64,000 nucleotides of DNA. Origin: an uncultured Planctomycetota bacterium (lineage in GTDB: Bacteria > Planctomycetota > UBA11346). The DNA is taken from NCBI GenBank assembly GCA_963818245.1, contig CAWFSD010000001.1:2749-66748 (forward strand), in the 5' to 3' direction. The position numbers and the translations under genes were made by a program. Below the pieces are notes generated by a model. That model had not been told where the DNA came from. It did no database searches and saw only the letters and a program-made list of their open reading frames with translations. Positions 15,893 through 31,249 of this stretch are shown here, piece after piece (positions within the stretch are counted from its first letter, which is position 1; each line of letters opens with the position of its first letter).

Positions 15893-18118
15893 ATGATGCC
15901 CGGCGGCCCGACCATGACCTTCAGCAGGCTGCTGACGGCGCGCTCGGTGGTCATCGGGTTGATCGCCTCGGCGGTGATGGCGGTGATCGCGCCGCTCAAC
16001 GACTGGGCCCTGGGCAACACCCCCATCTACAACCACTACCTGCCGCTGGGTGTCACCGTGCTGGTGTTGCTGATGGGGCTGGTGGTCAACCCCCTGCTCG
16101 GCGAGCGCCGCCTGCGCAGCGGCGAGATGACGGTCATCGTCAGCATGCTGCTGGTCCTGGGTGGGGTGGCCTCGAGCGGCCTGACCCGCCTGCTGCCCGG
16201 AGTCATGGCCGGGCCCGCCCGGGTGCTTCCGGCGGAGCCGGGCCTGTCGCCATTCCTGGGCAACGGCGAACTGCTGATGCCGCGCCGCGTGTTCGTCGAC
16301 CTGCCCGACCACGGACCGCCCGACCCGAACGACCCCGATCACCGCCTGGTCGTCGACGGCTTCCACAACGGCCTGCCGCAGGGCGCGCCGGTGGTCGGGC
16401 ACCGCGCGACGGTCACCTGGAGCCTGGCCGACGGCAGCGAGCGCACCGCCCTGGCGCTGGCGGGCAAGCGCGCGGCCGAGATGCCCGGCTGCCTCGATCT
16501 CGACCACCTCCCGGGCCTGGCCCTGCTCGGCCACCACGTCGGCGACACCATCGCGACGGCGGGCGGACCCCTGCGCATCGTCGCGGTGGTCCCGCCGGCG
16601 GTGCCGTGGCGGGCGTGGTGGCGGCCCTACCTGGCGTGGCTGCCGCTGCTGCTCGGCGCCTTCATCGCCTGCCTGGCGATCTCGGCGCTGGTGCGCCGGC
16701 AGTGGATCGACCACGAGCGCCTGCCCTTCCCCCTCGCCAACGTCACCCTCGACTTCATGGCCCCGCCCGAGCCGGGCACGCGCCTGGCGCCGATCTTCCG
16801 CGCGCGCGGCTTCTGGCTGGGCTTCGTGGTGGTCGCCGTGGTGCTGGTCAGCCAGGGCCTGGAGACCTGGGGGCTGCTGCCGATGTCGGTGTCGACCACC
16901 TTCGACTTCCGCGACGCCTTCGCGAGCGAGCCCTGGTACCAGGTCTACACGCACTGGGCGCTGTTCCGCGTCAACGTCTACTTCAGCATCGTCGGGCTGG
17001 CCTTCTTCCTGCCGCTCGACCTGAGCTTCAGCCTGTGGTTCTTCTTCGTCGCCACCAACCTGGTGTACATGGTGCTGAAGACCCAGGGCCGCCCGGTCGC
17101 CTATGACGACGCCGGCAAGGTCGGCGTGGGCGGCTTCGCGGTCGAGTGCCTGCTGATCCTGTGGATCGGGCGGCGCCACTACCTGGGCCTGCTGCGCGCC
17201 GCCTTCAGCCGCGGCGGGGACGAGCACCAGCGCCTGCTGGTCCCCTACGTGTGGATGCTGCTCGGCGGCGTGCTCACCATGGCCATGTGGCTGGTCGCGC
17301 TCGGCGCGCAGCCGCACCACGCGCTGGTGGCGGTGCTGCTGTTCCTCGGCTTCGTGCTGGTGCTGGCGCGGGTGGTGGCGGAGGCCGGCATCCCCGCCAT
17401 CGGCCTGCCGGCCGGCTGCCACCTCAGCCAAGTGCTGTTCTCGGTGGTGGGCTTCGGCGCGCCGCTCGCCGCGCTCGCGCCGCTGACCCTGCTCGGCGCG
17501 ACCCTGCTCGGCAACAGCCGCGAGAACCTGCTGCCCTACGCGGTCGACAGCGAGTACCTGGTCAAGCGCACCCTGATCCAGAACACCGTGGCCAAGCGCC
17601 TGCGCTGGACGGGGCTGCTGATCGGGGTGCTGGTCCTGGGCTCGCTGGCGGCGATGATGACCCTGGTCTCGTCCGACTACCAGCGCGACGGCCAGGTCGA
17701 CCGCGCCTGGTACTCCACCCTGGTCGAGCAGGGCCTGATGCCGCTCGCCACCGGCTCCGCGAGCGGCGCCGGCGCCCAGCCCGGCACCTGGTCGTGCTAC
17801 GGGCTGGGCGCCGTGCTGGTCGGGGTGCTCGGCGTGTGCCGCATGTTCCTGTCGTGGTGGCCACTGCACCCGATCGGCTACCTGGTCAGCATGACCGGCC
17901 CGACCCAGGCGATCTGGTTCAGCTTCCTGCTCGCGTGGATGGCCAAGCTGCTGGTCACGCGCTATGGCGGTCCGCAGCTCTACCAGCGCCTCAAGCCGGT
18001 GGCGATGGGCCTGATCGCGGCCGAGGCCGCCACCGCCGGGCTGTTCATGCTGCTCGCCGCGGTGCTGCACTGGTGCGGCATCGACTTCCCGCGCCACGTG
18101 AGCTTCCTGCCGCTATGA
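15893..18118 (+). CDS. Large polytopic membrane protein, paralog 1 (about 15-16 predicted spans with a ~150-aa hydrophilic insert); function unknown, possibly OPT-superfamily-like
   Basis: An intact 741-aa frame with protein-like composition. Hydrophobic spans run throughout. A hydrophilic insert follows span 3 (..FVDLPDHGPPDPNDPDHRLVVDGFHNG..). The motif RRQWIDHERLPFPLA is present and the C-terminus reads ..LVTRYGGPQLYQRLKP... The start may be ATG 15893, 15896 or 15914. Confidence 0.75.
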   Translation: MMPGGPTMTFSRLLTARSVVIGLIASAVMAVIAPLNDWALGNTPIYNHYLPLGVTVLVLLMGLVVNPLLGERRLRSGEMTVIVSMLLVLGGVASSGLTRLLPGVMAGPARVLPAEPGLSPFLGNGELLMPRRVFVDLPDHGPPDPNDPDHRLVVDGFHNGLPQGAPVVGHRATVTWSLADGSERTALALAGKRAAEMPGCLDLDHLPGLALLGHHVGDTIATAGGPLRIVAVVPPAVPWRAWWRPYLAWLPLLLGAFIACLAISALVRRQWIDHERLPFPLANVTLDFMAPPEPGTRLAPIFRARGFWLGFVVVAVVLVSQGLETWGLLPMSVSTTFDFRDAFASEPWYQVYTHWALFRVNVYFSIVGLAFFLPLDLSFSLWFFFVATNLVYMVLKTQGRPVAYDDAGKVGVGGFAVECLLILWIGRRHYLGLLRAAFSRGGDEHQRLLVPYVWMLLGGVLTMAMWLVALGAQPHHALVAVLLFLGFVLVLARVVAEAGIPAIGLPAGCHLSQVLFSVVGFGAPLAALAPLTLLGATLLGNSRENLLPYAVDSEYLVKRTLIQNTVAKRLRWTGLLIGVLVLGSLAAMMTLVSSDYQRDGQVDRAWYSTLVEQGLMPLATGSASGAGAQPGTWSCYGLGAVLVGVLGVCRMFLSWWPLHPIGYLVSMTGPTQAIWFSFLLAWMAKLLVTRYGGPQLYQRLKPVAMGLIAAEAATAGLFMLLAAVLHWCGIDFPRHVSFLPL

Positions 18119-20354
18119 ACCGCGCCGACCGCCCGGTGAGCGACCGCCTCCCGCCGCCGGACAGCGGTCCCGCCCTGACACGGCGCGCCATCGCCATCGG
18201 GGCGGTCGCGGCGGTGCTGTTCGCGCTGGTGACGCCGTACAACGACTGGCAGTACACCAGCTCGTACCTGTACTGCCACTTCATGCCGCCGGGCGTGACC
18301 GTGCTGATGCTGACGCTGGCCCTCGGGGTCAACCCGCTGCTCGGCGCGCGCCGCCTGCGGCTGGGCGAGCTGGCGGTCATCGCCGGGATGCTGCTGGTCC
18401 TCGGTGGGGTGGTGTCTTCCGGCCTCAACCGCTACTTCCCGCAGGTCATCGCGGGGCCCGCCAAGCTGCTGACCACGACCCCGGAGCTGGCGCCGCTGGC
18501 GCCGGTGAACGGCGACGTGGTCCTGCCGACGCGCTTCTTCGTCGGACTGCCGGAGCACGGACCCATCCGCAGCGACGACCCCGAGTACCGCTACGTCGTC
18601 GACGGCTTCAACAACGGCCTGGCGCGCGGCGACCTGTCCGTGGGCCACCGCACGGTGGTCGGCTGGCGCGCTGAAGACGGCACCGTCCACCGCGCGACCG
18701 CCTACAGCGGCGCCCTGGGGCTGGGCGGCGGCGAGGACGTGCTCGACCTCGACGTCCCGCCGGGCCGGCTGCTCGCGGGGCACCGCGCCGGCGACGAGGT
18801 CGAGACCCCGACCGGCCGGGTGCGGGTGCTGACGGTCGAGCGCTGCGGTCTGGGCGGCGTGCCGTGGGACGCGTGGGCGGGCCCCCTGCTGCACTGGTCG
18901 CCGATCCTGCTCGGGGCCTTCGTCTGCTGCCTGGCCCTCAGCGCCCTGGTGCGCCGGCAGTGGATCGACCACGAGCGCCTGCCCTACCCGATCGCCAACG
19001 TGCTGCTCTCCATCGTCGCCGATCCCGATCCCGGCCAGCGCGTTGCGCCGCTGTTCCGTTCGCGCCTGTTCTGGACCGGGCTCGCCATCGCCGCGACGGT
19101 GCTGGTCACGCAGGGACTCAAGGCCTGGGGGGTGCTGCCGGTGGCGATCCCCACCCACTTCGGCTTCCGCGCGATCTTCAGCGAACACGCCTTCGACAAC
19201 GTCTACGCGGGCTTCGCGGTCACCGACCTGGTGCTGTGGTTCTCGGTCGCCGGGCTGGCCTTCTTCCTGCCCCTCGACCTCGGCTTCAGCCTGTGGTTCT
19301 TCTTCCTGGCGACGGTGGCGGGCGTGGCGCTGCTGCGCACCCAGGGCATGCCGGTCACCGAGGACCAGGTGTCGAGCACCGGCGTCGGCGGCTTCGCGGT
19401 GCAGTGCCTGCTCATCCTGTGGGTCGGCCGCCGCTACTACGTCCAGGTGCTGCGCACGGCGCTGCTGGGCGCGGCGATCCGGACCTGCGCGAGGTCACGC
19501 CCTACGTCTGGCTGCTGCTCGCGGGCATCGCGGCGATGGCGGCGACCCTGGTGGCGAACGGCGCGCTGTGGTACCACGCGCTGCTCACCGTGCTGATCTT
19601 CCTCGGCTTCCTGCTGGTGCTGGCGCGCCTGGTCGCCGAGGCCGGGCTGCCGTTCCTGCAGATCCCGACCGGCTACTTCCTGAGCAAGGTGGTGTTCTCG
19701 ATCACCGGCTTCCACCTGCCGCTGGCGGCGCTCGCGCCGCTGCTGCTGATCGGCACCGGCCTGATGGGCGACACGCGCGAGAACCTGATGGCCTACGGGG
19801 TGCACGCCGAGTACCTGGGCCGGCGCGCCGGCGCGCCGCGCCTGGCGGGCAGCGCCGTGCTGCTCGCCGTGGTGGTGGTCGGCGCGCTGCTCAGCGGCGC
19901 GGTCATGCTGGTCATCTACTACGGCGGCGAGCACCCCGCCGACGGCTGGCCGCACTTCTCGCTGCTCGAGCACAACCTCAAACCGCTCGCCAACGGCTGG
20001 AGCGGCGTCGCCACGCCCGACGTCTGGCCGGGCTACGGCCTGGGCGCGGGCGTCACCGCCGTGCTCGGCATCGGGCGCATGCTGTTCTCGGCCTGGCCGC
20101 TCCACCCCCTGGGCTACATCGTCGCGAGCTGCTACCCGACCTGGCTGAACTGGTTCAGCGTGCTGGTCGGCTGGACCGCCAAGGCGCTGGTCCTGCGCTA
20201 CGGCGGACCGCAGCTCTACCAGCGCCTGCGCCCGCTCGCCATCGGCCTGATCGTGGGCGAGGCGCTGGCGAGCGTGCTGTTCATGGTCCTGACCTACCTG
20301 CTGCACCTGTGCGGTTCCGACTTCGCGACCCACCCCCAGTTCCTGCCGCGCTGA
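18115..20354 (+). CDS. Large polytopic membrane protein, paralog 2 (one apparent frameshift near 19470)
   Basis: The ATG overlaps the paralog 1 stop (ATGA). It is colinear with paralog 1, sharing blocks SALVRRQWIDHERLP(F/Y)P, GLAFFLPLDL(S/G)FSLWFFF, VGVGGFAV(E/Q)CLLILW, LVLAR(V/L)VAEAG and RYGGPQLYQRL(K/R)P. The frame switch at ..LLG|(R)GDPDLREVTPYVWLLLAG restores colinearity. Confidence 0.75.
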
Positions 20355-20357
20355 GCC

Positions 20358-21236
20358 GTGACGGACGGTCTCGCCATCCACGGCATCGGCTGCCCCCTGC
20401 CGCGGGGCTGGGAGGCGGTCGGCAGCGCCGGCGGCTGGCGGCGCGGCCAGGTGCTGGTCGCCGCCAGCGATGGCCCGCCCCTGCTCGCCGTCGGCTGGGA
20501 GCGGCAAGCACCGACGTCGGAGCCGCAGCGGTTGCTCGCAGCCCTCGAACGGCGCATGCGCAGCGAACTCGGCTGTGGCGAGCGCCGCGCCTGCAGCGCC
20601 ATCGCCGGGGGCCTGCTGGCGCGCTGGGCGGCGCCCCCAGGCGAGCTGTGCGGTGGGGTGCGCTGCGTGCGCCCGGCGACCGCCGCGGACGCGGAACGCG
20701 GGGTGGCGCTGGTGGTGCGCGCCCTGGCCCCCGCCGGCGTGGCGGCGGCGCACGCGGCCTTGGCCGGCGCCTGGGCGCGCGCCGTTGATCAGCCCACCCC
20801 GCTGCGCATCTACGGGCTCGACCTGGAGCTGCCGCCGTGGTGGCGGCTCGACGGCATGCAGCAGCTCGCCGGCCTGGTGCGCGCGCTGTTCCTGCACCAT
20901 CCGCGGGGCCGCCCCGACCGCATCGCCGGCGCCCTGGTGCTGCGCCGCTTCGCCTGCGCCGGGCGGGTCCTGGCGGGGCGCACGCCGGCGGAGTGGATCG
21001 CGGAGCAGCTCGGGCGGCGCGAGACGGTGCTGTCCAGCGCGGTGGTGGACGGGGTGACCGCCGTGCGCACCCGGCGGCCCGCCCCGGGCTGGTGGCGGCG
21101 CCTGGCCGGGGCCAGCGAGGGACGCAGCTTCCACGCCTGGCTGGAGGCGGCTGGCGACCGCCTGGTCCTGCAGGAGTGGTATGGCACCGGGACGCCGGTG
21201 ATGTGCTTGCGGAGTGCCGTCCCCACAGGAAGTTAG
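20358..21236 (+). CDS. Hypothetical protein (292 aa), no recognisable motif
   Basis: A GTG start lies 3 nt after the upstream stop and the ORF fills the gap in the operon. The composition is Ala/Arg/Gly/Leu-rich but contains W-rich blocks (LDLELPPWWRLDGMQQLAGLVRALFLHH). The call rests on position and coupling only. Confidence 0.5.
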   Translation: MTDGLAIHGIGCPLPRGWEAVGSAGGWRRGQVLVAASDGPPLLAVGWERQAPTSEPQRLLAALERRMRSELGCGERRACSAIAGGLLARWAAPPGELCGGVRCVRPATAADAERGVALVVRALAPAGVAAAHAALAGAWARAVDQPTPLRIYGLDLELPPWWRLDGMQQLAGLVRALFLHHPRGRPDRIAGALVLRRFACAGRVLAGRTPAEWIAEQLGRRETVLSSAVVDGVTAVRTRRPAPGWWRRLAGASEGRSFHAWLEAAGDRLVLQEWYGTGTPVMCLRSAVPTGS

Positions 21237-21240
21237 CTCC

Positions 21241-21600
21241 ATGGCCGCCCCCTCCGCCAGCATGCCCGGCGCGCCCGCCCCCGGCATTCCGCGGCTCACC
21301 CCCGGTGTCGAGCTGCAGCGGCTCGACGGAGGGCTCGTGCGCCTGCGCGGGGCCCCCTTCCGGCGCGGTGCCGCGCACCGCCTGGTCGCGCGCTGGCTGC
21401 GCCTGCCGGAGCGCCTCGAGGTCGAGCTGGACGAGCTCGGCGCGTTCGTGGTCACGCGCTGCGACGGCCGCGACCTGGAGACCCTCGCCGGCGATCTCGC
21501 CGCCCACCTCCGGCTGACGCGCCGCGAGGCGCGCGTCGCGCTCGCCGACTTCCTGCGCCTGCTCGAGCGCCGCCGGCTGCTGCGCGTGGTCCCGGCATGA
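21241..21600 (+). CDS. PqqD-family / RiPP-recognition-element-like small protein
   Basis: The 119-aa sequence ..VELDELGAFVVTRCDGRDLETLAGDLAAHLRLTRREARVALADFLRLLERRRLL fits, by eye, the PqqD pattern (x-L-[ND]-x-x-[GA]-x-x-[IV]W-x-x-x-DG-x-x-[TS]..I/L...L.......a..D[VL]..FL..L...GL[LI]). GTG 21214 is an alternative start. Confidence 0.55.
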   Translation: MAAPSASMPGAPAPGIPRLTPGVELQRLDGGLVRLRGAPFRRGAAHRLVARWLRLPERLEVELDELGAFVVTRCDGRDLETLAGDLAAHLRLTRREARVALADFLRLLERRRLLRVVPA

Positions 21601-23402
21601 CCCGCCCGCCGCCGCAGCCGTCCGGAACCACTTCCAGCGCCCGCCAGCGGGCGCAGATCGGGCCGCCGCGCGTGCTGCCGCTGCGCGTCGCCGCGCAGGT
21701 GGCGTGGCGCTCGATCCGCGTGCGCCTGGTGCGCAGCCTGGTCAGCGTCTCGTCGGTGGTCCTGGCGGTCGCCTTCCTGCTCGCGGTGCTCGGCCAGGGC
21801 CTGACCGAGGCCAACGTCTACCGCCGCTGGCGCGCCCAGAGCCTGCCCGGCGAGCAGCTGGCGCAGCTGCGCGAGGTGCTCGCCCGTCCGCGCAGCGTCG
21901 CCGAGCTGCTGCGCCTGGTGGCGCGCGCGCCCGCGCCCGCCCAGCCGGTCGCGGACGCTGTCCCGCCCGGCACCGCGCAGACGGCGGTGCGCCTGATCGC
22001 GTGGGCCGCCGCGCTCAAGCCCACCCACGCCTACCTGCTGACGCGCAACCGCGACCTGGCGGACTGGGCGCTGCACGTCGACTCGCCGGCCGCGGTCGAC
22101 GCGCTGATCGCCAGCGCCGCGGGCTTCACCGGCCGGCGCCTGCCGCTGGCGCGCGAGGAGCTGATCACGCTGTCGCGGCACGCGCCGGGCCTCGCCGCCG
22201 CGGTCGACGCGCTGCGCCTCGCCGAACCGGCGCGCCTGGCGCGCGTCGCCGCGGCCGGCGGCGTCGAGGCGGTGCTCGACCTGGTGCAGCGCGGCGCCGC
22301 GCCCGGCGACCTGCGCGAGGCCGGCCTGCCCCTCGACGAGGCGCTGCCGGGGCTGGACGCCGCGCAGACCCACGCGCTGCGCGAGCAGATCCGCATCGAG
22401 CGCCTGCGCACGCGCGCCGCCGCGGTGCTGGCCGAGGCCAACCGCATCGATCCCTCGCTGCTGCGCACCCAGGACGTCACCGACTGGGCCGCGCTGGCCC
22501 GCGCCTGGCCGGGCAACCGCCTGCTCGCCCGCCTCGAGCTGCTCTTCGGCGTCGATGGCGTCCACTCGCCCGACCCCGCGCGCCTGGTCCACGACGCGCA
22601 GGCGCAGGGCGAGCTGGTCACCGCGCTCGACCGCGAGCTGGCGCGCCCCGAACTCTACGACGAAGAGGCGTGGCGCCAGGAAACGCTGCCGGCCGAGGCG
22701 CTCGGCCTGCTCAAGCAGAACCTCGCGCGCATGGCCGAGCGCCGGCTGACGCGCCTCAACCGCCTGCTGCTCGAGCACGCGCTCGCCCCCGCGCTGACCG
22801 GCGGGCCCGCGCTCGAGACCTTCGACCTGCGCCAGATCGTCGGCGACCACCCCGACGCCACCGGTGCGCGCACGCGCGCGCTGGTGACCGCCGCCCTCGG
22901 GGCGGACGGCGCCGCCGAGCTGCGCGCCGAGCTGCTGCAGCGCGCCCAGCTCGAGGAGCTGGCGCGCACCTTCGCCGGCGACCGCGGCACCCCGGGCGGC
23001 GGGCGCACGGTGTGGCTGGTGGTGCTGTCGCTGCTGGTGTGCGTGGTCGGCATCGTCAACACCATGATGATGGCGGTCACCGAGCGCTTCCGCGAGATCG
23101 CCACCATGAAGTGCCTGGGCGCGCTCGACTCGTTCATCGTCAAGTCGTTCCTCATCGAGTCCGCGGCCATGGGCGTGGCCGGTTCGCTGGTCGGGGTGGT
23201 GCTGGGCCTGGCGCTGGTGGTGGTGCAGGCCGCGACGCGCTTCGGGGCGGTGTTCTGGGCGACCCTGCCGGTCGCCGACCTGCTCGCCGCGTGCGTCGCC
23301 GGCATGGTCGCCGGACTGGTCCTCGCCGTCCTCGGCGCGCTGCTGCCGGCGCTGGTGGCGGCGCGCATGCACCCGATCGAAGCGATGCGGGTGGACGCGT
23401 GA
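21597..23402 (+). CDS. FtsX/MacB-type ABC permease with a ~400-aa extracytoplasmic insert
   Basis: The ATG overlaps the upstream stop (ATGA). The TM1 region RVRLVRSLVSVSSVVLAVAFLLAVLG is followed by a long Ala/Leu/Arg-rich helical segment. The C-terminal FtsX module follows: VVGIVNTMMMAVTERFREIATMKCLGALDSFIVKSFLIESAAMGVAGSLVG...LLPALVAARMHPIEAMRVD. Confidence 0.75.
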   Translation: MTRPPPQPSGTTSSARQRAQIGPPRVLPLRVAAQVAWRSIRVRLVRSLVSVSSVVLAVAFLLAVLGQGLTEANVYRRWRAQSLPGEQLAQLREVLARPRSVAELLRLVARAPAPAQPVADAVPPGTAQTAVRLIAWAAALKPTHAYLLTRNRDLADWALHVDSPAAVDALIASAAGFTGRRLPLAREELITLSRHAPGLAAAVDALRLAEPARLARVAAAGGVEAVLDLVQRGAAPGDLREAGLPLDEALPGLDAAQTHALREQIRIERLRTRAAAVLAEANRIDPSLLRTQDVTDWAALARAWPGNRLLARLELLFGVDGVHSPDPARLVHDAQAQGELVTALDRELARPELYDEEAWRQETLPAEALGLLKQNLARMAERRLTRLNRLLLEHALAPALTGGPALETFDLRQIVGDHPDATGARTRALVTAALGADGAAELRAELLQRAQLEELARTFAGDRGTPGGGRTVWLVVLSLLVCVVGIVNTMMMAVTERFREIATMKCLGALDSFIVKSFLIESAAMGVAGSLVGVVLGLALVVVQAATRFGAVFWATLPVADLLAACVAGMVAGLVLAVLGALLPALVAARMHPIEAMRVDA

Positions 23403-23473
23403 GGATCGTCGAGCAGCGTTGGGAGCCGCGCGCGGGGCTGGTGGTGGACTGGCGTCGCCCCAGCCGCCGGGGG

Positions 23474-23607
23474 GAGGCGCGAGGCGCGAGGCGCGAGGCG
23501 CGAGGCGCCGGGACGCGGTCGCCCGGCTCGCTCAGGCGGGGATCAGCGCCGCGCTGGGCGGGCGTGGCGTCGCCGCCCTCGCGCCTCGTGCCTCGCGCCT
23601 CGCGCCT
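23474..23607. repeat. Palindrome with GAGGCGC heptamer tandem arms inside the operon
   Basis: Five tandem gaggcgc units (23474-23508) face ctcgcgcctcgtgcctcgcgcctcgcgcct (23578-23607) across a ~70-nt loop. The element sits in the only sizeable intergenic gap of the operon. Its right arm overlaps the probable start of the next gene. Confidence 0.75.
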
Positions 23608-26600
23608 TTCCTGCTGATCGCGCTGGCGCTGCCTGGCCGCGCCCGGCGCCTCGGCCGCGGAGCCGGACCTCGATCCCAACGCCATCCGCTCCCTCGCCGA
23701 GACCCTCATCGCCATCCCCGAGCGCACCATGGGCACGCCCGGCGCCGAGCAGGCGCTGAGCGTGCTCGAGCACCGCCTGCAGGCCGCGGGCCTGACGCCG
23801 CTGCGCGTGCGCACCACGGTGACGGTGGCGGCCGACCGCGGGTCGTGGCTGGAGGTCGGCGGCAAGCGCCTGGCGATCGCGCCCCACCAGAGCAACCACG
23901 CGGCCACCGCCGGCACCGGCGGGCGCACCATCTCGGCGCGCCTGGTCTTCGCGGGCCGCGGCACGCTGCCCGAGCTCGGCGGCAAGCCGATCGCCGGCAA
24001 CATCGTGGTCCTCGACGGCGACGCGCGCAGCGGCTGGACCACGGTCGCGTCGCTGGGCGCGGCGGCGGTGGTGTTCCGGCGCAGCGACGGCATGGACGGC
24101 TACCACCTCGCCGGCCAGACGGTGGCGGCGAGCCTGGTCTTCCCGCGCTTCGTCGCCGACCTCGATCCGGCGCTGGACGGCCAGCCGGCGCTGCTGCAGT
24201 CCGAGGTCGCCTGGGAGCCGCGCGCCGCGAGCTCGCTGATCGCGCTGATCCCCGGCACCGGCAGCGGGCGCGAGGCGGTGGTGCTGACCGCCGGCTACGA
24301 GGCGGGCGGGCCGATCGACCACCTCACTCCTGGCGCGACCCGGGCCTGGAACGCCGCGCTGCTCGCCGAGCTGGCGGTCGCGCTGGCGAAGGCGCCGCCG
24401 CAGCGCAGCGTCCTGGTGGTCTTCAACGGCGGCCGCGCCGAGTACTTCCGCGGCCTGCGCCAGGTGATGGGCGCGCTGACCCTCGACCGCCAGTCCGACC
24501 GCGGGCTGTCCCCCGCCAACCGCATCGTCGACCTGCTCGGCGACGCCGAGGCCGCGCGCTCGCGCACCATGCTGGTCGCCGACACCCTGGCCGCCGTCGA
24601 TCCCGCCGGTGCCGGCCTGGCCGAGGCGCTGCGCCGCGGCCTGCGCCAGCGCATCCCGGCCGGTGCGGACGCCGCCGAGCAGGGCCGCCAGGCGCAGCTG
24701 CTGCTCGAACTGGTGCTCGCCAACGAGGCCGGCGACCGCGCCGACGTGCTGCTCGAGGGCGTCGACCACCTGCGCGAGCGCCAGGCGGAGCTGCGCCGCG
24801 GCGGCAGCGCCGACGCCCTCGCCCAGGTGCGGAGCGAGCTCGCCAAGGAGGAGCCGGTCTACCAGCGCTGGCGCTCGCTGCAGCAGCGCCTCGACTACGG
24901 CAAGGACCTCGACGAGGACGGCGACCGCGCGCTCGGCGAGCTGCTGCCGGCGGCGCGCGCCCTGGTCGCGCGCCACCGCAGCGTGGTCGACGACCGCGCC
25001 GCCGACCTGCGCAGCCTGGCGGCGGCGCGCGCGCTGGCGGCGAAGCTCGACCCCATCCACCTGGTGGCCCTCGACTTCAGCGACGGCAACGACGCCTTCT
25101 CGACCGCCACCGGCGGCTTCTTCGTGACCTGGTCGAACGACCTCAGCTGGCTGCACAAGGCGGTGCTCAAGCTCGCCACCGGCGGCGCGCTGCGCAGCGC
25201 CTACGACCCGGCGCCGCAGCAGCTGCCCGCGGACAGCGGCGCGTTCTTCCCCGCCGAGTGGATGCACGAGGCCGGCGCGGTCGGCAACTTCCTGCCCGCG
25301 GTGACCTTCGCCACCACCAACGACGCGCGCCTGCGCGTCGGCACCCCGCTCGACACCGCCGCGGCCTTCCGCGCCGGCGCCTTCCTGCACCAGTGCGCGG
25401 GGCTGCTGCCGCTGCTGAGCGCCTACATCGACTGCCCCGACATCGCCGACCGCAAGCCCAAGACGCTGGTCTTCAAGCAGCCGCTGATCGGCGTCGAGGC
25501 GCGCGCCACCGGGTCGAAGAACGGCCGCCGGCCCTTCCCCTTCGCGCTCAGCACCATGGTCTTCGGCTGGCGCTCGGACCTGGTCGGCGACGTGCGCGCC
25601 TGGGAGACGGAGTGGGGCGACCTCGCCGGCAACGCCCAGGTGCTGTTCGAGAGCGAGTTCTCGCCCGGCATGGGCCACGGCCTGCCGCTGACCATCTACG
25701 GCTGCGACGCGCGCGGCGGCATCACCCACGTCATCGCCAGCGGCGGGCAGCAGAAGACCAACCCGGGGCTGGAGCTGGGCATCAACCAGAAGCTCGAGGA
25801 CAAGCTGGTGCTGCTGTTCCGCGCCGTCCCCAGCCGCCTGCACGGCGCCTTCGACCCGCGCCTGCTCACCGAGCTCGGCGCGGTCACGCCGCTCTCGGCC
25901 TACCGCAACGCGCAGCCGAACTTCTACCACTGCGAGGCCGCCGACGGGCAGATCGCGGTGTTCACCGAGCCCGACGTGCCGCTGCTGGTCACCGCCTCGC
26001 AGGGCCGCGTCGGCAACCGCCTGGTGCTGCTCGGCGAGCCCGGGGCCAAGGCCGGCGACTACGCCGGGCGCGGCGCCGGCGGCGCGCTCGCGCGGTTGAC
26101 CCCGCTCGACGCCGCCGAGGACATGTGGCACCTGGACGAGCAGCGCCTCGCGCTGCTGCGCCACAGCGGCATCGAGCCGGACAGCCTGGTGACCCTGCAC
26201 GCCGCCGCCGAGCGCCAGCTGACCCTGGCGCGCCAGGCCTGGCAGCGCGGCGACATCGCCGGCGCCAGCGGCGCCGCGCAGGCCTCGTGGGCGCTGACCA
26301 GCCGCGTCTACCCCAACCTGCTCGCCACCGCCAACGACGTGGTCTACGGCCTGGTGGTGCTGCTGTTCTTCGCCATCCCCTTCGCGCTGATCTGCGAGCG
26401 CCTGTTCCTGGCCGGCGGGACCGTGGTGCGCAAGGTCGCGGGATTCGCCGGCTGCTTCACCGCGGTGTTCCTGTTCTTCCTGTGCTTCCACCCGGCGTTC
26501 TCGCTCGCCACCACGCCGATGATCATCTTCCTCGCCTTCGTCATCATCCTGATGAGCATGTGGGTCATCGGCATCATCGCCGCGCGCTTCGAGCAGGAGA

Positions 26601-28452
26601 TGGAGACGATCCGCATGGCCGGCGAGGGCCACCACCGCGCCGACGTCAGCCGCCTGGGCGTGCTGCTCGCCACCGTCGCGCTCGGCACCAGCAACATGCG
26701 GCGCCGCCCGCTGCGCACCGCGCTGACCGCGGCGACGGTGGTGCTGATGACCTTCATCCTGCTGACCTTCGCCGGCTTCAACCCGGTCAACGGCACCCAG
26801 CGCATCGCCCTCGACGCGCCGGCCCCCTACCAGGGCGTGCTGCTGCGCTTCAACGGCTGGTCGGCCCTGCCGGAGCCCACCCTCGAGCGCATGGAGTCGA
26901 GCTGGGGCACGCAGCTGGTCGCCTACCCGCTGCGCTGGCTGCAGCCCTCGACCGAGGTGCCCAAGTTCCCGCTCAGCGGACCGGGCGGCACCAGCCAGGT
27001 CACCGGCGTGGTCGGCGTGCGCGCCGGGCGACCCCACCGGCATCGAGACCGCGCTGCTGCGCGGCCCCGCCGCGGTCGGCACGCCGCGCGGCTTCGGCAG
27101 CGAGGGCGACTGGCTGTTCCTGCCCGAGGAGATCCTGCGCCGCATCGGCGTGCAGCCGGGCGGGAAGCTGCGCTTCCGCGGCCGCGAGATGACGGCCGGG
27201 CTGATCGACGTGCGCGCCCTGGCCGGCGTCACCCAGCTCGGCGGCGAGGCCCCGACGCCGCTCGCCCTCGAGGCCCTCGAGCAGGGCCAGGCCGCCGCCC
27301 AGGCCAGCAGCGCGAGCGGCGACGCGCCGAGCGTCGAGAGCAACTCGGTGCGTGCACCTCGGCGCCGCGGCGGTGGCGGTGGCGCGCGCCGAGACCGTCG
27401 CCGGGCTGGGCGGCACGCTGCGCGCCATCAGCCTGGTGCCGCGCGACGCCAGCATCGACCTCGCCCACCTCGCCGACGACCTCGCGCAGCAGGTCGCGAC
27501 CACCCTGCGCGTCGGCGACCAGGGCGAGAGCTACCTGCTGACCGGGGTCAGCCGCATCTCGGTCGCCGGCCTGGGCTCGGTGCTGGTGCCGCTGGTCCTC
27601 GGCGGCCTGGTGATCTTCTCGACCATGCTCAACTCGGTGGCGGAGCGCGGGCGCGAGATCTTCATCTACGCCTCGCTCGGCCTGTCGCCGACGCACGTCG
27701 CCGCGCTGTTCCTGGTCGAGGCCGGCATCTACGCGGTGCTCGGCGGCATCGGCGGCTACATGCTGGCGCAGGGCACGGTCTCGGCGCTCGGCTTCGCCGC
27801 CGACCTCGGCTTCGGCACGCGGCCGGACCTCAACTACTCCAGCTTCGCCGCGGTGCTGACCATCCTCATCGTCATGGCCACGGTGCTGCTGTCGGCGCTC
27901 TACCCGGCGCTGGTCGCCTCGCGCACCGCCAACCCGGGCAGCGGCGGCGAGTTCCGCCTGCCCAAGCCGGAGGGTGACAGCATCGCCGCCGCCTTCCCCT
28001 TCACCGTCGCGGCGCGCGACATCCGCGGCCTGCTCGCCTTCCTGCGCCGCTGGCTCGAGCTGCACACCGAGGCTTCGACCGGCGCCTTCACCGCGGCCGA
28101 GGCGTTCCTGACCATCGACGACCCGCGCTTCGCGGTCACCGCCACGACCTGGCTGGCGCCCTTCGACCTCGGCATCAGCCAGCGCTTCACCCTGATCGCC
28201 GAGCGCACCGACGTGGCGGCGATCTACGCGGTGCGCATCGAACTCGAGCTGCTGTCCGGCCAGCGCTCGGCGTGGCGCCGCGCCAACGTCGCCTTCATGC
28301 GCCAGCTGCGCCAGCAGTTCCTGGTCTGGCGCACGCTCGCGCCCGAGGCCATGGACCGCTACCGCGCCGCCGGTGGCGATGAGCAGGCGGGCGTGCGCCT
28401 GGCGGCCCACCTGCCCGCGCCGGCCCTGCCGACGGTCGGGGACGCCCCATGA
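23588..28452 (+). CDS. Giant (~1620 aa) fusion: signal peptide, PA-domain/M28-peptidase-like periplasmic region (apparently ligand-less), multi-span region, MacB-type FtsX permease module, C-terminal soluble domain; about four apparent frameshifts
   Basis: The tentative GTG 23588 gives M-PRASRL-FLLIALALPG..ASA|AEPD, a signal-peptide shape, after two indels near 23605 and 23635. The main frame 23672-27030 reads ..RTMGTPGAEQALSVLEHRLQAAGL.., then a PA-like block (ISARLVFAGRGTLPELGGKPIAGNIVVLDG..GAAAVVF), then ..LIALIPGTGSGREAVVLTAGYEAG... TM clusters lie at ~26340-26590. MacB TM1 is NMRRRPLRTALTAATVVLMTFILLTFAG. Frames switch at 27026-27028 and ~27345. The FtsX module is 27550-27930 (FSTMLNSVAERGREIFIYASLGLSPTHVAALFLVEAGIYAVLGG). 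About 170 further aa run to the stop at 28452. Confidence 0.7.
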
Positions 28453-30431
28453 GCGCCCTCGCCGACCGCGAACTGCAGCAGTACCGCGACCTGGTCAAGG
28501 CGCCGGGGACCTGGGACGACGGCTTCAGCTGGCGCACCCTGCTCGGCGCGGTGTTCGTCGGCCTGCTCATGCTGCCGGCCTCGATGTACATGAGCCTGGC
28601 CATCGGCGAGGGCATCGGCCCGGCGGCCAAGTGGGTGACGGTGATCCTCTTCCTGGAGGTCGCCAAGCGCGCGCGCTCGTCGCTGAAGCCGGCCGAGATC
28701 TTCATCCTCTTCGCCATGGTCGGCACGCTGGTCGGCAGCCCGATGCAGAGCTTCTTCTGGAACCAGTTCCTGGTCCAGTCCGAGGCGGCGCGCGGCTTCG
28801 GCCTGACCGACAGCTTCCCGACCTGGTTCGCGCCCAGCGACCCGGCGGTGCTCGACAAGCGCAGCTTCTTCATGTGGGAGTGGTTCGTGCCGATCGTGCT
28901 GCTGTTCATCTCGCAGGTGATCGGGCGCATCGACAGCCTGGTGCTGGGCTACGGCCTGTTCCGCGTCACCAGCGACATCGAGAAGCTGCCCTTCCCGATG
29001 GCGCCGATGGGCGCGGCCGGCGTCACCGCGCTGTCGGAGAACCTGACCGGCAACGAGGGCTGGCGCTGGCGCTGCTTCTCGATCGGCGCGGCCTTCGGCC
29101 TGGTCTTCGGCTTCATCTACGCCGGCGTGCCGGTGATCTCGACCGCGCTGGGCATGAACGCGCCGCTGCAGATCCTGCCGCTGCCGTGGCTGGAGACCTC
29201 GACCACCACCCAGGACCTGCTGCCGGCGACGCCCACCGGCATCAGCTTCGACCTCGGCAACTTCTTCCTCGGCATGGCGCTGCCGTTCTTCGGCGTGGTC
29301 GGCGCGGCGCTGGCCCTGGTCATCACCTGCATCGCCAACCCGCTGCTGTTCAAGTACCACGTGCTGACCAGCTGGAAGCCGGGGATGAGCACCACCGAGA
29401 TCCTCTACAACAACAGCGTCGACTTCTACCTCAGCTTCGGCATCGGCCTGGCCCTGGCGGTGGCCGGCATCGGCATCTGGCAGTGCCTGGCGACGCTGCG
29501 GCGCGGGCGCGAACCGTCGTTCGACCGCGCCACGGTGGTGGCGGCGCCGGCGCGCCCTTCGCGCGCACGCGGCGACATCCGCACGCCGCTGATCATCGCC
29601 ACCTACCTGGCCAGCTCGACCTTCTACATCCTGCTGTGCGGCTTCCTGCTGCACTGGGACTTCCGCGGCAGCCGGCTGCTGTGGGTGCTGCTGTTCTTCG
29701 CCTTCATCTACACGCCGCTGGTCAGCTACGTCACCGCCCGCCTGGAGGGCCTCGCCGGCCAGGCCCTCGACCTGCCCTACATCCGCGAGGCGGCCTTCAT
29801 CTTCTCCGGCTTCCACGGCATCGAGATCTGGCTGCTGCCCATCCCGATGCGCAACTTCGGCGGCGAGGACACCGTCAACTACCGCATCGCCGAGCTGGTC
29901 GGCTGCTCGTTCCGCTCGATCTGGAAGATGACCCTGGTGGTGACGCCGCTGGTGTTCGCGCTGTCGGTCCTCTACGGCCAGTTCATCTGGTCGCTCGGCC
30001 CCATCCCCGGCCCGCAGTACCCCTACGCCCAGCAGCTGTGGGAGCTGAACGCGCGCCAGCAGTGCCTGGTCTACACCGCCACCACGGGCGGCTTCAGCCC
30101 GTTCATGGAGGCGGTCAAACCCGGCATCATCGCCGCCGGCGGCGTCATCGGCGTGGCCACCTACGCCGGGCTGTCGGCCTTCGGCCTGCCGGTCCTGCTG
30201 CTCTACGGCGTGGTCAAGGGCCTCGGCGGCTCGATCCCGCAGTACCTGCTGCTGCAGCTGGTCGGCGCGCTGTTCGGGCGCTACGTGCTCGAGCGGCGCT
30301 TCGGCTCCGAGCGCTGGCGCGGCTACGCGCCGGTGCTGTTCGCCGGCTATTCCTGCGGCGCCGGCCTGGCCACGGCGTTCGCGGTGGGCGTCAAGTTCCT
30401 CTCCGCCTCGGTGTTCCAGCTGTCGTTCTGA
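28449..30431 (+). CDS. Large polytopic membrane protein (660 aa), third member; possibly OPT-superfamily-like
   Basis: The ATG overlaps the upstream stop (ATGA). The ORF is intact with about 14-16 hydrophobic spans. The motif DIEKLPFPMAPMGAAGVTAL parallels HERLPFPLA in the two paralogs upstream. Confidence 0.7.
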   Translation: MSALADRELQQYRDLVKAPGTWDDGFSWRTLLGAVFVGLLMLPASMYMSLAIGEGIGPAAKWVTVILFLEVAKRARSSLKPAEIFILFAMVGTLVGSPMQSFFWNQFLVQSEAARGFGLTDSFPTWFAPSDPAVLDKRSFFMWEWFVPIVLLFISQVIGRIDSLVLGYGLFRVTSDIEKLPFPMAPMGAAGVTALSENLTGNEGWRWRCFSIGAAFGLVFGFIYAGVPVISTALGMNAPLQILPLPWLETSTTTQDLLPATPTGISFDLGNFFLGMALPFFGVVGAALALVITCIANPLLFKYHVLTSWKPGMSTTEILYNNSVDFYLSFGIGLALAVAGIGIWQCLATLRRGREPSFDRATVVAAPARPSRARGDIRTPLIIATYLASSTFYILLCGFLLHWDFRGSRLLWVLLFFAFIYTPLVSYVTARLEGLAGQALDLPYIREAAFIFSGFHGIEIWLLPIPMRNFGGEDTVNYRIAELVGCSFRSIWKMTLVVTPLVFALSVLYGQFIWSLGPIPGPQYPYAQQLWELNARQQCLVYTATTGGFSPFMEAVKPGIIAAGGVIGVATYAGLSAFGLPVLLLYGVVKGLGGSIPQYLLLQLVGALFGRYVLERRFGSERWRGYAPVLFAGYSCGAGLATAFAVGVKFLSASVFQLSF

Positions 30432-30448: not shown

Positions 30449-31249
30449 ATGAACCAGCCGACCAGCACCTACCAGACCTACTGGGACCCCGAGAGCAACG
30501 CGCGCCACCGCGAGTACGCCACCGGGCGCACGGTGATCGTGCGCGCGCGCGACGTGCGCAAGGTCTACCAGCGCGGCAACGCCGAGCCGGTGCAGGCGCT
30601 GCGCGGCGTGACCATGGAGATCTACGCCGGCGAGTACCTGGCGATCATGGGCCCGTCGGGCTCGGGCAAGTCGACCTTCTTCAACGCCATCGGCGGCCTC
30701 GACCGCCCGACCTCGGGCCAGGTCTACATCGACGAGGTCGACATCGCCCAGCTCGACGCGCGCGAGCTGGCCTGGCTGCGCTGCCGCAAGATCGGCTACA
30801 TCTTCCAGAGCTACAACCTGATCCCGGTGATGACCGCGATCGAGAACGTGATGCTGCCGATGACCTTCGCCGGCACGCCCGGCGACGTGGCGCGGCACAA
30901 GGCCGCCGGGCTGTGCGAGCTGGTCGGCATCGGCCACCGCCTGGACAACAAGCCGAGCGAGCTCTCCGGCGGGCAGCAGCAGCGCGTCGCCATCGCGCGC
31001 AGCCTGGCCAACGACCCGGCGATCATCCTGGCCGACGAGCCGACCGCGAACCTCGACTCCAAGACCGGCCTGGAGATCATCCGCCTGCTGGTGGAGCTCA
31101 AGATCAAGAAGGGCGTGACCATCATCAGCGCCACCCACGACCACGAGATGCTCGCGGTCAGCGACCGCGTGCTGTGGATCAAGGACGGCACCGTCGACCG
31201 CGTCGAGCTGCGCGAGGACCTGAAGATCGAGAAGGGGTCGATCGGCTGA
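30449..31249 (+). CDS. ABC transporter ATP-binding protein, LolD/MacB/FtsE-like
   Basis: Walker A GPSGSGKST, Q-loop IFQSYNL, signature LSGGQQQRVAIARSL, Walker B IILADEPTANLD and H-loop ISATHD are all present. A ~25-aa N-terminal extension precedes them. Intact. Confidence 0.9.
   Translation: MNQPTSTYQTYWDPESNARHREYATGRTVIVRARDVRKVYQRGNAEPVQALRGVTMEIYAGEYLAIMGPSGSGKSTFFNAIGGLDRPTSGQVYIDEVDIAQLDARELAWLRCRKIGYIFQSYNLIPVMTAIENVMLPMTFAGTPGDVARHKAAGLCELVGIGHRLDNKPSELSGGQQQRVAIARSLANDPAIILADEPTANLDSKTGLEIIRLLVELKIKKGVTIISATHDHEMLAVSDRVLWIKDGTVDRVELREDLKIEKGSIG

What the first reader, a model, noticed from the sequence alone, without database searches (positions are those of the whole stretch)
23588..28452. 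FtsX-type permease fused in cis to a PA/M28-peptidase-like domain that appears to have lost its metal ligands
**What the sequence shows**
- After a signal-peptide-like N-terminus, the layout is that of PA-domain M28 aminopeptidases.
- It has the pro-region-like ..RTMGTPGAEQALSVLEHRLQAAGL.., the PA block ISARLVFAGRGTLPELGGKPIAGNIVVLDG..GAAAVVF, and ..LIALIPGTGSGREAVVLTAG...
- Where M28 enzymes carry the HxD, (G/A)DD(N/D)xSG and EE ligand or catalytic motifs, my by-eye alignment reads GYEAG, PGATRAWNAA and NGGRAEY.
- The same polypeptide continues into a multi-span region, a MacB-type TM1, a periplasmic domain, an FtsX module, and a ~170-aa cytoplasmic tail with no motif I recognise.

**Established knowledge**
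- FtsEX systems act through periplasmic partners. At least one partner, EnvC, is a catalytically dead peptidase-fold activator.

**Inference**
- A dead M28 module hard-wired to the permease could be a mechanically controlled binding or activator domain. I have not seen this fusion described.
Basis: partly seen in the sequence, partly recalled or inferred. Interest (0 to 1): 0.65.

Follow-up and report, generated by a model that had tools for sequence, protein, structure and literature searches.

The report
Dead aminopeptidase fused to MacB-type permease
This locus encodes a giant membrane protein in which a peptidase-like domain that has lost its canonical metal-binding residues is built onto an ABC-transporter-type "mechanical" permease; the family is widespread across bacterial phyla and unstudied, and the copy in this window is broken by what are most likely sequencing errors.

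Summary
The architecture is real, but the window does not hold it as one ORF. Coding runs in frame 2 (23618-27022), frame 0 (27024-27350) and frame 1 (27352-28452). A 93.6%-identical relative (L002, protein P0024, 1608 aa) and every more distant homologue (1450-1930 aa) carry one uninterrupted ORF. The breaks are single-base insertions at 27022 and 27351. Substitutions downstream are almost all synonymous, and neighbouring genes carry similar indels, so assembly error is the likeliest cause.

The periplasmic N-terminus is a PA-domain M28 fold (profile vs 2EK8, E 1.5e-13; Foldseek 8.6e-17). His97 is Gly, Asp117 is Arg, and Glu151/Glu152 are Arg/Ala. None of 75 family members keeps the full ligand set. 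The Asp179 and His256 equivalents appear to be retained.

The C-terminal half is a MacB/LolC-type (type VII ABC) permease, followed by a conserved cytoplasmic domain. The operon also encodes a second FtsX-type permease, a LolD-type ATPase and DUF6785-family membrane proteins. In some phyla the DUF6785 module is fused to this protein.

The family has more than 1000 clusters in at least 7 phyla, and I found no paper on it. Its function is inferred: an ATP-driven mechanotransducer carrying a non-catalytic ligand-binding module.

The parts
23588..23656 (+). Probable start (GTG 23588) and Sec-type signal peptide MPRASR-FLLIALAL-LAAPGASA. It reads in frames 2/1/2 and frame 2 has an in-frame TGA at 23615.
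   Evidence: Homologues have clear signal peptides, e.g. P0008 MPRTFLLLFACLFATTAWA. The frame repair here is inferred, not verified.
23657..23887 (+). First segment of the M28 fold (res 23-99), containing the R..G.PG motif.
   Evidence: Profile alignment to 2EK8 residues 15-90; model pLDDT above 90.
23888..24190 (+). PA (protease-associated) domain inserted in the M28 fold (res ~100-200).
   Evidence: Aligned to the PA domain of 2EK8. Foldseek hits PA-M28 enzymes, TfR1 and GCPII. Pfam PA hits 1 of 21 homologues.
24191..24520 (+). M28 core carrying the degenerate catalytic motifs: G235-Y-E237 (24293-24301) for HxD, R251 (24341-24343) for the bridging Asp, and R282-A283 (24434-24439) for Glu-Glu.
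24521..25036 (+). Helical (coiled-coil-like) insertion of about 170 aa within the M28 fold (res 311-482).
   Evidence: Model helices 288-459. The insertion is absent from the Latescibacterota/Gemmatimonadota homologues.
25046..25435 (+). C-terminal part of the M28 fold (res 486-615), with D495 (25073-25075, Asp179-equivalent, inferred), H559 (25265-25267, His256-equivalent, inferred) and the TTNDxR..P.D motif.
   Evidence: Foldseek alignments to M28 enzymes span 620-670 columns. D495 column is Asp in 73 of 75 members. There is no sequence-level PDB match.
25457..26059 (+). Beta-rich periplasmic domain specific to the family (res 623-823).
   Evidence: Model strands 609-796. No Pfam or NCBIfam match.
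26099..26287 (+). Helical hairpin/stalk leading into the membrane (res 837-899).
26339..26590 (+). Three extra transmembrane helices (res ~917-1000).
   Evidence: Hydropathy; model 2 helices 54-176.
26699..26779 (+). MacB-type TM1 preceded by the LGTSNMRRRP motif (res 1037-1063).
   Evidence: (the motif was used to find 91 species).
26780..27567 (+). MacB/LolC-type periplasmic domain between TM1 and TM2. It is interrupted in the window by 1-nt insertions at 27022 and 27351.
   Evidence: Pfam MacB_PCD hits 2 of 21 homologues.
27020..27024 (+). Frameshift 1 (frame 2 to frame 0): one extra base relative to L002 (GTGCG[C]GCCGGG).
27349..27353 (+). Frameshift 2 (frame 0 to frame 1): one extra base relative to L002 (TCGGTG[C]GTGCAC).
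27568..27927 (+). FtsX module (TM2-TM4).
   Evidence: Pfam PF02687 E 1.3e-10. PDB sequence hits to YtrF, MacB and LolC/F. Foldseek.
27928..28452 (+). Conserved cytoplasmic alpha/beta C-terminal domain of about 170 aa, plus the stop codon.
   Evidence: Conserved motifs WLAPFD and QFLVWRTL across the family. Model strands 631-723. Only a weak SRPBCC-like Foldseek hit (2D4R, prob 0.66).
21597..23402 (+). Upstream partner: a second FtsX-type permease (601 aa). Its stop overlaps a GTG in the big gene's frame (GTGA at 23399-23402).
   Evidence: Pfam FtsX E 1.4e-15; NCBIfam LolCE/MacB-like; conserved position in L001 and L002.
28449..30431 (+). Downstream partner: a 660-aa polytopic membrane protein, distantly related to DUF6785.
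   Evidence: No Pfam hit. hhalign vs DUF6785 gives prob 83%, E 9.4e-6. It follows the big gene in many phyla.
30467..31249 (+). LolD/MacB/FtsE-type ABC ATPase.
   Evidence: Pfam ABC_tran E 4e-34; NCBIfam LolD 1.6e-63 and MacB 1.6e-62.
15893..20354 (+). Two tandem DUF6785/DUF6784 polytopic membrane protein genes. The second has a 1-nt deletion at 19471.
20358..21600 (+). A 292-aa protein with no recognisable domain, and a PqqD-like 119-aa protein.
   Evidence: Conserved in Planctomycetota operons.

Best explanation
**What it is**
In its intact form the locus encodes an inner-membrane protein of about 1,620 aa. It belongs to a large, uncharacterised family.

**Layout (shown)**
- a signal peptide
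- a periplasmic PA-domain M28-fold module whose canonical di-zinc site is dismantled (His to Gly, bridging Asp to Arg, Glu-Glu to Arg-Ala)
- a helical insertion of about 170 aa within that module
- a beta-rich domain and a helical stalk
- three extra TM helices
- a complete MacB/LolC-type (type VII ABC) permease unit
- a conserved cytoplasmic C-terminal domain

**How it most likely works (inferred)**
- It pairs with the adjacent 601-aa FtsX-type permease and two copies of the operon's LolD-type ATPase, as LolC/LolE/LolD2 do.
- ATP binding and hydrolysis move the periplasmic stalk and domain (mechanotransmission).
- That motion repositions the cis-fused, non-catalytic M28/coiled-coil module.
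- The module binds a peptide, protein or anionic ligand rather than cleaving it.
- It does this together with the DUF6785-family polytopic proteins that are always nearby or fused.

**Frameshifts**
The frameshifts in this window are most likely assembly errors, not biology.
For: **Fusion in one ORF**
- Homologues P0002-P0021 are 1317-1932 aa (P0015 and P0016 are fragments), and all but P0015 carry PF02687.
- P0024 is 1608 aa and its DNA is 93.6% identical to the window.
- 81 of the 82 fetched loci yield a stop-to-stop ORF carrying the permease motif.

**M28/PA homology**
- Profile vs 2EK8, E 1.5e-13; PaAP (deposited as 'Keratinase KP1') and YwaD also match.
- Foldseek: 2EK8 8.6e-17; BSAP, PaAP, TfR1 and GCPII all at probability 1.0, on a model with pLDDT 87.5.
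- Pfam M28 hits 3 of 21 homologues and PA hits 1 of 21.

**Ligand loss**
- among 75 members, none has Asp at the bridging position and none has Glu at the 151 or 152 positions.

**MacB-type permease**
-, and Foldseek hits to MacB, LolC/E, HrtB and YtrF.

**Operon and partners**
- LolD-type ATPase and a second FtsX permease are in the operon.
- DUF6785 linkage is conserved across phyla, and the module is fused to this protein in L018, L028, L042 and L063.

**Frameshifts as errors**
- After frameshift 2 there are 62 synonymous vs 7 non-synonymous codon differences.
- Four further uncompensated 1-nt indels lie in other genes, at 19471, 33117, 33742 and 36761.

**Precedent**
- A dead peptidase fold plus coiled coil driven by a type VII ABC complex is known from EnvC-FtsEX (PMC7668044).
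Against: - There is no experimental or ligand information, so the mechanism rests on analogy.
- The D179- and H256-equivalent residues and nearby conserved acidic residues (E237, E284) could form a non-canonical metal or catalytic site.
- Most other family members conserve a different set (Y-Y-D, PGAE, G-H-F, L-D-L, D). That pattern points to a conserved functional pocket of unknown chemistry.
- Outside Planctomycetota, an ABC ATPase gene lies within about 10 kb in only 7 of 41 long loci, so ATP coupling is not shown for the whole family.
- The two halves were modelled separately, so no contact between the M28/coiled-coil module and the MacB periplasmic domain has been shown.
Confidence: 0.55

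Rival explanations
1. The M28-like module is still an enzyme or metal-binding domain with a remodelled, non-canonical active site. The protein would then be a membrane-anchored, ABC-coupled hydrolase rather than a pseudoenzyme.
For: - The column equivalent to Asp179 is Asp in 73 of 75 members.
- The position-98 Tyr, the PGA motif and TxNDxR..P.D are nearly invariant.
- The majority clade conserves Glu116, His151 and Asp256. The window's clade conserves E237, E284, D495 and H559.
- M28-fold glutaminyl cyclases work with a single Zn (own knowledge). They appear only as weak, non-significant hits (E 0.1-0.3).
Against: - The bridging Asp is never present, and both Glu of the EE motif are always replaced.
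- In this clade two Arg side chains occupy the Asp117 and Glu151 positions, which is typical of metal-free pseudoenzymes.
- Pfam M28 does not reach E 0.1 on the window protein.
Confidence: 0.17
2. The gene is a real pseudogene in this organism. The frameshifts are real, and the locus makes at most a truncated 1270-aa protein lacking the FtsX module.
For: - The public assembly carries the frameshifts, and separate ORFs are called there: P0001 (1270 aa) and P0025 (290 aa).
- The N-terminal region also needs frame repair.
Against: - Downstream segments keep perfect GC3 periodicity.
- They differ from L002 almost only synonymously: 22 vs 6 and 62 vs 7.
- At least four other genes in the 22 kb that aligns with L002 carry the same kind of single-base indel. 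This pattern fits an error-prone assembly.
- No relative shares the frameshifts.
Confidence: 0.1
3. The system is a substrate extractor or exporter of the LolCDE/MacB/HrtBA kind (lipoprotein, lipid, peptide or RiPP-like product). The N-terminal module would be a passive cap or receptor, and the DUF6785 proteins or a PqqD-bound peptide would be the cargo route. The dead peptidase would not be the regulated output.
For: - The closest structural matches of the permease half are extractors and exporters (LolC/E, MacB, HrtB, YtrF), not FtsX.
- A PqqD-like protein is conserved in the Planctomycetota operons. PqqD-type domains bind peptides in RiPP pathways (own knowledge).
- The C-terminal tail has a weak SRPBCC/START-like hit, a lipid-binding fold.
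Against: - No precursor peptide, maturation enzyme, periplasmic adaptor or outer-membrane factor was found in the operon.
- The PqqD-like gene is missing outside Planctomycetota.
- The periplasmic module of about 900 aa is conserved and under purifying selection, which argues for an active role.
Confidence: 0.18

Closest known systems
FtsEX-EnvC (E. coli cell-division amidase activation system; PMC7668044)
   Same: Both combine a type VII ABC complex with a periplasmic element made of long helices plus a catalytically degenerate metallopeptidase fold. In FtsEX-EnvC, ATP-driven conformational change is passed to that element.
   Different: - EnvC is a separate protein with an M23/LytM fold. Here the dead fold is M28+PA and is fused in cis at the N-terminus, ahead of three extra TM helices.
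- The permease is MacB/LolC-like (NCBIfam FtsX_Gneg scores 15.6 bits against a cut-off of 255).
- No amidase partner is evident.
- Partners here are DUF6785-family membrane proteins.
MacB / LolCDE / HrtBA / YtrEF type VII ABC transporters
   Same: - The same 4-TM FtsX module with a large periplasmic domain between TM1 and TM2 (Foldseek E 1e-8 to 1e-5, 460-520 aligned columns).
- A LolD/MacB-type ATPase in the operon.
- Two different permease genes, as in LolC/LolE.
   Different: - About 1,030 extra N-terminal residues (periplasmic module plus three TM helices) and a C-terminal cytoplasmic domain of about 170 aa.
- No MacA/TolC or LolA-type partners were seen.
PA-domain M28 aminopeptidases (Aneurinibacillus AM-1 aminopeptidase 2EK8, B. 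subtilis YwaD/BSAP, P. aeruginosa PaAP)
   Same: The same fold and domain order, with the PA domain inserted in the M28 core, and significant profile and structural matches.
   Different: - Three of the five metal ligands and the catalytic Glu are replaced.
- A helical insertion of about 170 aa is present.
- The module is tethered to a membrane machine.
Transferrin receptor 1 and nicastrin (catalytically dead M28-fold receptors)
   Same: Both are M28(+PA)-fold ectodomains that have lost catalysis and serve as binding or gatekeeping modules anchored in the membrane. TfR1 is a strong structural hit (E ~1e-13). Nicastrin is only a weak sequence hit (E 0.3).
   Different: They are eukaryotic, single-pass proteins not coupled to an ABC permease. 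Their helical domain follows the M28 fold rather than being inserted in it.

Membership tests
MEROPS M28 metallopeptidase (active enzyme) | M28 alpha/beta fold | tested here: met
   Profile vs 2EK8 E 1.5e-13. Foldseek to 2EK8, BSAP and PaAP at probability 1.0, TM (target-normalised) 0.44-0.60.
MEROPS M28 metallopeptidase (active enzyme) | Five co-catalytic Zn ligands (His97, Asp117, Glu152, Asp179, His256 in AAP numbering) | tested here: not met
   G235 stands for His97, R251 for Asp117 and A283 for Glu152. D495 and H559 may correspond to Asp179 and His256, but only by inference (one search gave no alignment).
MEROPS M28 metallopeptidase (active enzyme) | Catalytic general-base Glu (Glu151) | tested here: not met
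   R282 is aligned to the first Glu of the 2EK8 'GAEEN' motif. This column is His in 65 and Arg in 8 of 75 members.
PA (protease-associated) domain | PA fold inserted in the peptidase domain, with the G-x-G..G-K-I-x-L and GA-x-A-V-I motifs | tested here: met
   Aligned to the PA region of 2EK8. Structural hits are all PA-containing M28 proteins. Pfam PA matches 1 of 21 homologues but not the window protein itself.
Type VII ABC (MacB/FtsX-family) permease | FtsX domain (TM2-TM4) preceded by TM1 and a large periplasmic domain | tested here: met
   PF02687 E 1.3e-10. Foldseek to MacB, LolC/E, HrtB and YtrF. Hydropathy. MacB_PCD in 2 of 21 homologues.
Type VII ABC (MacB/FtsX-family) permease | Cognate LolD/MacB/FtsE-type nucleotide-binding protein | tested here: met
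   The gene at 30467-31249 matches LolD (1.6e-63) and MacB NBD (1.6e-62). In other phyla an ATPase lies within about 10 kb in only 7 of 41 loci.
Type VII ABC (MacB/FtsX-family) permease | ATP-driven periplasmic conformational change (mechanotransmission) | not testable with these tools
   Needs biochemistry or structures in different nucleotide states.
FtsX proper (cell-division FtsEX) | Orthology to FtsX (NCBIfam equivalog score), ftsE neighbour, small periplasmic domain with an X-lobe | tested here: not met
   TIGR00439 scores 15.6 bits against a cut-off of 255. Foldseek hits to FtsX are only E 1.4e-2 to 7e-2, against 1e-8 for MacB/LolC.
EnvC-type activator | Coiled coil plus degenerate LytM (M23) domain, binding the FtsX periplasmic domain in trans | tested here: not met
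   The fold is M28+PA, not M23, and it is fused in cis. The resemblance is only one of logic.
M28B / transferrin-receptor-like family | PA plus M28 domains followed by a C-terminal helical dimerisation domain | tested here: inconclusive
   TfR1 and GCPII are strong structural hits (E 1e-13 to 1e-11) but with TM only 0.25-0.27. The helical region here is an insertion inside the M28 fold.

The most novel reading that the evidence does not exclude
The family defines a previously unrecognised envelope machine found across phyla. A type VII ABC motor carries its own EnvC-like element in cis, made of long helices plus a dead M28/PA peptidase. It uses ATP-driven motion to gate, load or activate DUF6785-family polytopic membrane proteins, which are themselves of unknown function and are sometimes fused to it. 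This would be a new functional class of mechanotransducing ABC systems, and the first functional handle on DUF6785/DUF6784.
Probability: 0.25. Interest if true: 0.8.

Novelty: new variant of a known kind. Interest (0 to 1): 0.55.

Why it matters
- Type VII ABC systems (MacB, LolCDE, FtsEX) are the model for transmitting cytoplasmic ATP energy to periplasmic work.
- FtsEX-EnvC showed that a dead peptidase fold can be the regulated output of such a system.
- Here a different dead peptidase fold (M28+PA, the fold of transferrin receptor and nicastrin) is hard-wired to such a permease.
- The family has more than 1000 sequence clusters across Planctomycetota (including anammox bacteria), Armatimonadota, Abditibacteriota, Latescibacterota, Gemmatimonadota and other phyla.
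- It is always linked to, and sometimes fused with, DUF6785-family membrane proteins.
- If the cis-coupled model holds, the output domain is covalently attached, so it gives a tractable single-chain system for studying mechanotransmission.
- It would also assign a first context to two Pfam DUFs.
- Practically, the finding flags that this window's assembly carries frequent single-base indels that break real genes.

Tried and rejected
- **Pfam and NCBIfam on the window's N-terminal 877-1140 aa.** No hit, even at E 0.1. Homology had to be shown with a family profile and a structure model.
- **Profile of the second half of the M28 fold (A4) against PDB sequences.** Only spurious ESAT-6 and coiled-coil hits. 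The Asp179 and His256 equivalences therefore stay inferred.
- **Programmed frameshifting.** Rejected. No relative shares the shifts, they are simple 1-nt insertions relative to L002, and other genes carry similar indels.
- **ATG 23729 as the true start (no signal peptide).** Rejected. The conserved M28 N-terminal motif and coding periodicity start upstream, and all homologues have signal peptides.
- **OPT-type peptide transporter idea for the 660-aa protein and DUF6785.** No Pfam support, even at E 10. Only a mutual distant relationship was found.
- **Literature searches** for DUF6785, M28+FtsX/MacB, and 'FtsX-like permease' plus 'peptidase M28'. Nothing relevant.
- **An active M28-FtsX fusion among 75 relatives.** None has the full ligand set.

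Full report
**1. What is in the sequence**

The window is about 77% G+C, so long spurious ORFs occur in every frame. Third-position GC periodicity and stop maps show that real coding on the + strand runs as follows:
- frame 2 from about 23618 to about 27022
- frame 0 from 27024 to 27350
- frame 1 from 27352 to the stop at 28450-28452

In this window, however, the 'single polypeptide' exists only after two +1 frame repairs inside the MacB-type periplasmic domain.

At the N-terminus, GTG 23588 (frame 2) meets a TGA at 23615. The hydrophobic FLLIALAL stretch reads only in frame 1. A signal peptide therefore needs two further compensating indels.

**2. The fusion is real; the frameshifts are probably not**

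The frame-2 product was searched against 5.8 billion proteins. Besides the window's own 1270-aa ORF, this returned 20 homologues:
- They are 1317-1932 aa long. Two of them (P0015, P0016) are fragments.
- The closest (47-59% identical) cover 98-100% of the query.
- All but the fragment P0015 carry Pfam FtsX.

The window's own 90% cluster contains P0024, an uninterrupted 1608-aa protein. Its locus, L002, is 93.6% identical to window 23654-30431 at the DNA level.

Compared with L002, the window has uncompensated single-base insertions at exactly 27022 and 27351. It also has uncompensated single-base indels in other genes, at 19471, 33117, 33742 and 36761.

Downstream of the shifts, the differences from L002 are overwhelmingly synonymous: 22 vs 6 codons between the two shifts, and 62 vs 7 after the second. 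The most economical reading is an indel-prone assembly. A very recent pseudogene cannot be excluded.

**3. The N-terminal periplasmic module**

Pfam and NCBIfam do not recognise the window's N-terminal region. Three distant homologues hit Peptidase_M28 and one hits PA.

A profile of the family (A1) matches solved PA-domain M28 aminopeptidases:

| Structure | E-value |
|---|---|
| 2EK8 | 1.5e-13 (profile positions 6-273, chain residues 15-286) |
| P. aeruginosa PaAP (deposited as 'Keratinase KP1') | 1.8e-7 |
| YwaD | 2e-6 |
| Transferrin receptor | ~3e-3 |
| Nicastrin | 0.3 |

An AlphaFold2 model of window residues 23660-26290 is confident (pLDDT 87.5, pTM 0.88). Its best PDB matches are 2EK8 (8.6e-17), BSAP, PaAP, TfR1 and GCPII/III.

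The model shows these parts in order:
- the M28 fold with an inserted PA domain
- an all-helical insertion of about 170 residues (model 288-459)
- the rest of the M28 fold
- a beta-rich domain (about 600-800)
- a helical hairpin

**4. Metal ligands**

In the HMM alignment to 2EK8, the family's 'aGYEa' lies opposite 'SHHDS' and 'GGRAe' lies opposite 'GAEEN'. The motif PGATRAWNA corresponds to PGANDDASG. In the window this gives:

| Canonical residue (AAP numbering) | Window residue | Status |
|---|---|---|
| His97 | G235 | replaced |
| Asp99 | E237 | replaced (conservative) |
| Asp117 (bridging) | R251 | replaced |
| Glu151 (general base) | R282 | replaced |
| Glu152 | A283 | replaced |
| Asp179 | D495 | apparently retained (inferred) |
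| His256 | H559 | apparently retained (inferred) |

Across 75 full or near-full relatives from many phyla:
- The His97 column is Tyr in 57, Gly in 9 and His in 3.
- The Asp117 column is never Asp.
- The Glu151 column is His in 65 and Arg in 8.
- The Glu152 column is never Glu.
- The Asp179-equivalent column is Asp in 73 of 75.
- The His256-equivalent column is Asp in 56 and His in 8.

No member keeps the canonical set, so the loss is ancient and family-wide.

The last two equivalences are inferred from motif position and the model. A profile of that half found no M28 structure by sequence. The replacement residues are themselves well conserved within each clade, so the pocket is still functional. 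A non-canonical metal or catalytic site cannot be excluded.

**5. The C-terminal half**

Hydropathy gives a signal peptide plus seven TM helices. The topology puts the large N-terminal module and the TM1-TM2 loop outside and the tail inside.

- The FtsX Pfam domain is at 27586-27924.
- By sequence, the region matches YtrF, Spr0695, MacB, LolF and LolC.
- A model of the equivalent 771 residues of the intact homologue P0002 (pLDDT 79.5) matches MacB, LolC/LolE, HrtB, YtrF, YbbP and BceB over 460-520 columns.
- FtsX itself matches only weakly. NCBIfam FtsX scores are far below their cut-offs.

So this is a MacB/LolC-type type VII ABC permease, not an FtsX orthologue.

The tail of about 170 aa is an alpha/beta domain conserved throughout the family. 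It has only a weak SRPBCC-like hit.

**6. Context**

The operon is conserved in L001 and L002. Its order is:
1. DUF6785/DUF6784 (two tandem copies here)
2. a 292-aa protein of unknown function
3. a PqqD-like protein
4. a 601-aa FtsX-type permease
5. the big protein
6. a 660-aa polytopic protein
7. a LolD/MacB-type ATPase

The 660-aa protein is a distant relative of DUF6785 (hhalign probability 83%, E 9.4e-6).

A scan of one genome per species found 91 species with the N-terminal module plus the permease motif. The named phyla are Planctomycetota (including Kuenenia and Brocadiaceae), Abditibacteriota, Armatimonadota, Latescibacterota, Gemmatimonadota, Lentisphaerota and Coatesbacteria.

Across these, the big gene is flanked by a 660-aa-type and/or DUF6785-type gene in most loci whose flanks were recovered. 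In Latescibacterota loci (L018, L028, L063) and a Gemmatimonadota locus (L042), the DUF6785 module is fused to its C-terminus in one ORF of about 2,100 aa or more.

An ABC ATPase is adjacent mainly in Planctomycetota: 7 of 41 long loci have one.

An exhaustive HMMER scan of 1.84 billion representatives found 1040 clusters at E <= 1e-3 and 611 at E <= 1e-10. Most of the top hits are 1,400-1,900 aa long.

NCBI names the full-length proteins 'FtsX-like permease family protein' and the fragments 'M28 family peptidase'. No paper was found.

**7. Mechanism (inferred)**

The inference rests on analogy with LolCDE, which has two different permeases plus a LolD dimer, and with FtsEX-EnvC, in which ATP-driven motion is relayed to a coiled coil plus a degenerate peptidase fold (PMC7668044).

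I propose the following:
- The big protein pairs with the 601-aa permease and the operon's ATPase.
- Nucleotide-dependent movements of the periplasmic stalk and domain reposition the cis-fused, non-catalytic M28/PA/helical module.
- That module binds a ligand and acts on or with the DUF6785-family proteins. The two Arg residues in the former metal site suggest the ligand is anionic, or a peptide terminus.

Shown: the architecture, the ligand replacements, the operon, and the fusion with DUF6785. Inferred: the assembly, the ATP coupling, and the binding rather than cleaving role.

**8. Verdict**

The content is correct, but the window does not hold a single ORF and the start frame is wrong.

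I rate this as a new variant of a known kind, and as a good hypothesis generator. It lacks functional evidence.

Noticed in passing
window 23469-23607: A very stable hairpin made of heptamer tandem repeats lies between the FtsX-601 stop and the big gene's signal-peptide coding region. (GAGGCGC)x5 pairs with four inverted copies: 31-nt arms, 97% complementary. The RNA fold is -137 kcal/mol, z = -7.5. The 93%-identical relative L002 has the same architecture with a different heptamer (GTGCGGA x4 plus an inverted copy). L001 has (GGCGTTC)x4. The candidate start GTG 23588 lies in the 3' arm.
   Followed up: partly
window 19471, 33117, 33742, 36761: Relative to L002 there are further uncompensated single-base indels in other genes: the second DUF6785 copy, the NIR_SIR-type reductase gene, and the GSDH/He_PIG gene. 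Many genes in this window therefore read as broken ORFs, which points to an indel-prone assembly.
   Followed up: partly
L018, L028, L042, L063 (ORFs of 2111-2661 aa): In Latescibacterota (L018, L028, L063) and a Gemmatimonadota MAG (L042), a DUF6785/DUF6784 module is fused to the C-terminus of the M28-like/permease protein in one stop-to-stop ORF. This is a Rosetta-stone link between the two families.
   Followed up: yes
window 28449-30431 and 15893-20354: The 660-aa polytopic protein downstream has no Pfam hit. It is a distant relative of DUF6785 (hhalign probability 83%, shared E[RK]LPFP motif). Two DUF6785/DUF6784 genes sit in tandem upstream.
   Followed up: partly
window 21241-21600: A PqqD-like 119-aa protein is conserved in the Planctomycetota versions of the operon, next to a 292-aa protein with no recognisable domain. 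PqqD-type domains act as peptide-binding (RRE) elements in RiPP pathways (own knowledge).
   Followed up: no
loci L012-L082: Outside Planctomycetota, most loci (34 of 41 with about 10-kb flanks) have no ABC ATPase gene near the permease fusion.
   Followed up: partly
P0012-P0015 (helical insertion region): In some Planctomycetota homologues the helical insertion in the M28 fold is longer and contains two hydrophobic, TM-like segments.
   Followed up: no
window 27928-28449: The conserved cytoplasmic tail is predicted as a beta-alpha-beta4-alpha domain. It has only a weak Foldseek similarity to an SRPBCC/START-like protein (2D4R, probability 0.66).
   Followed up: partly
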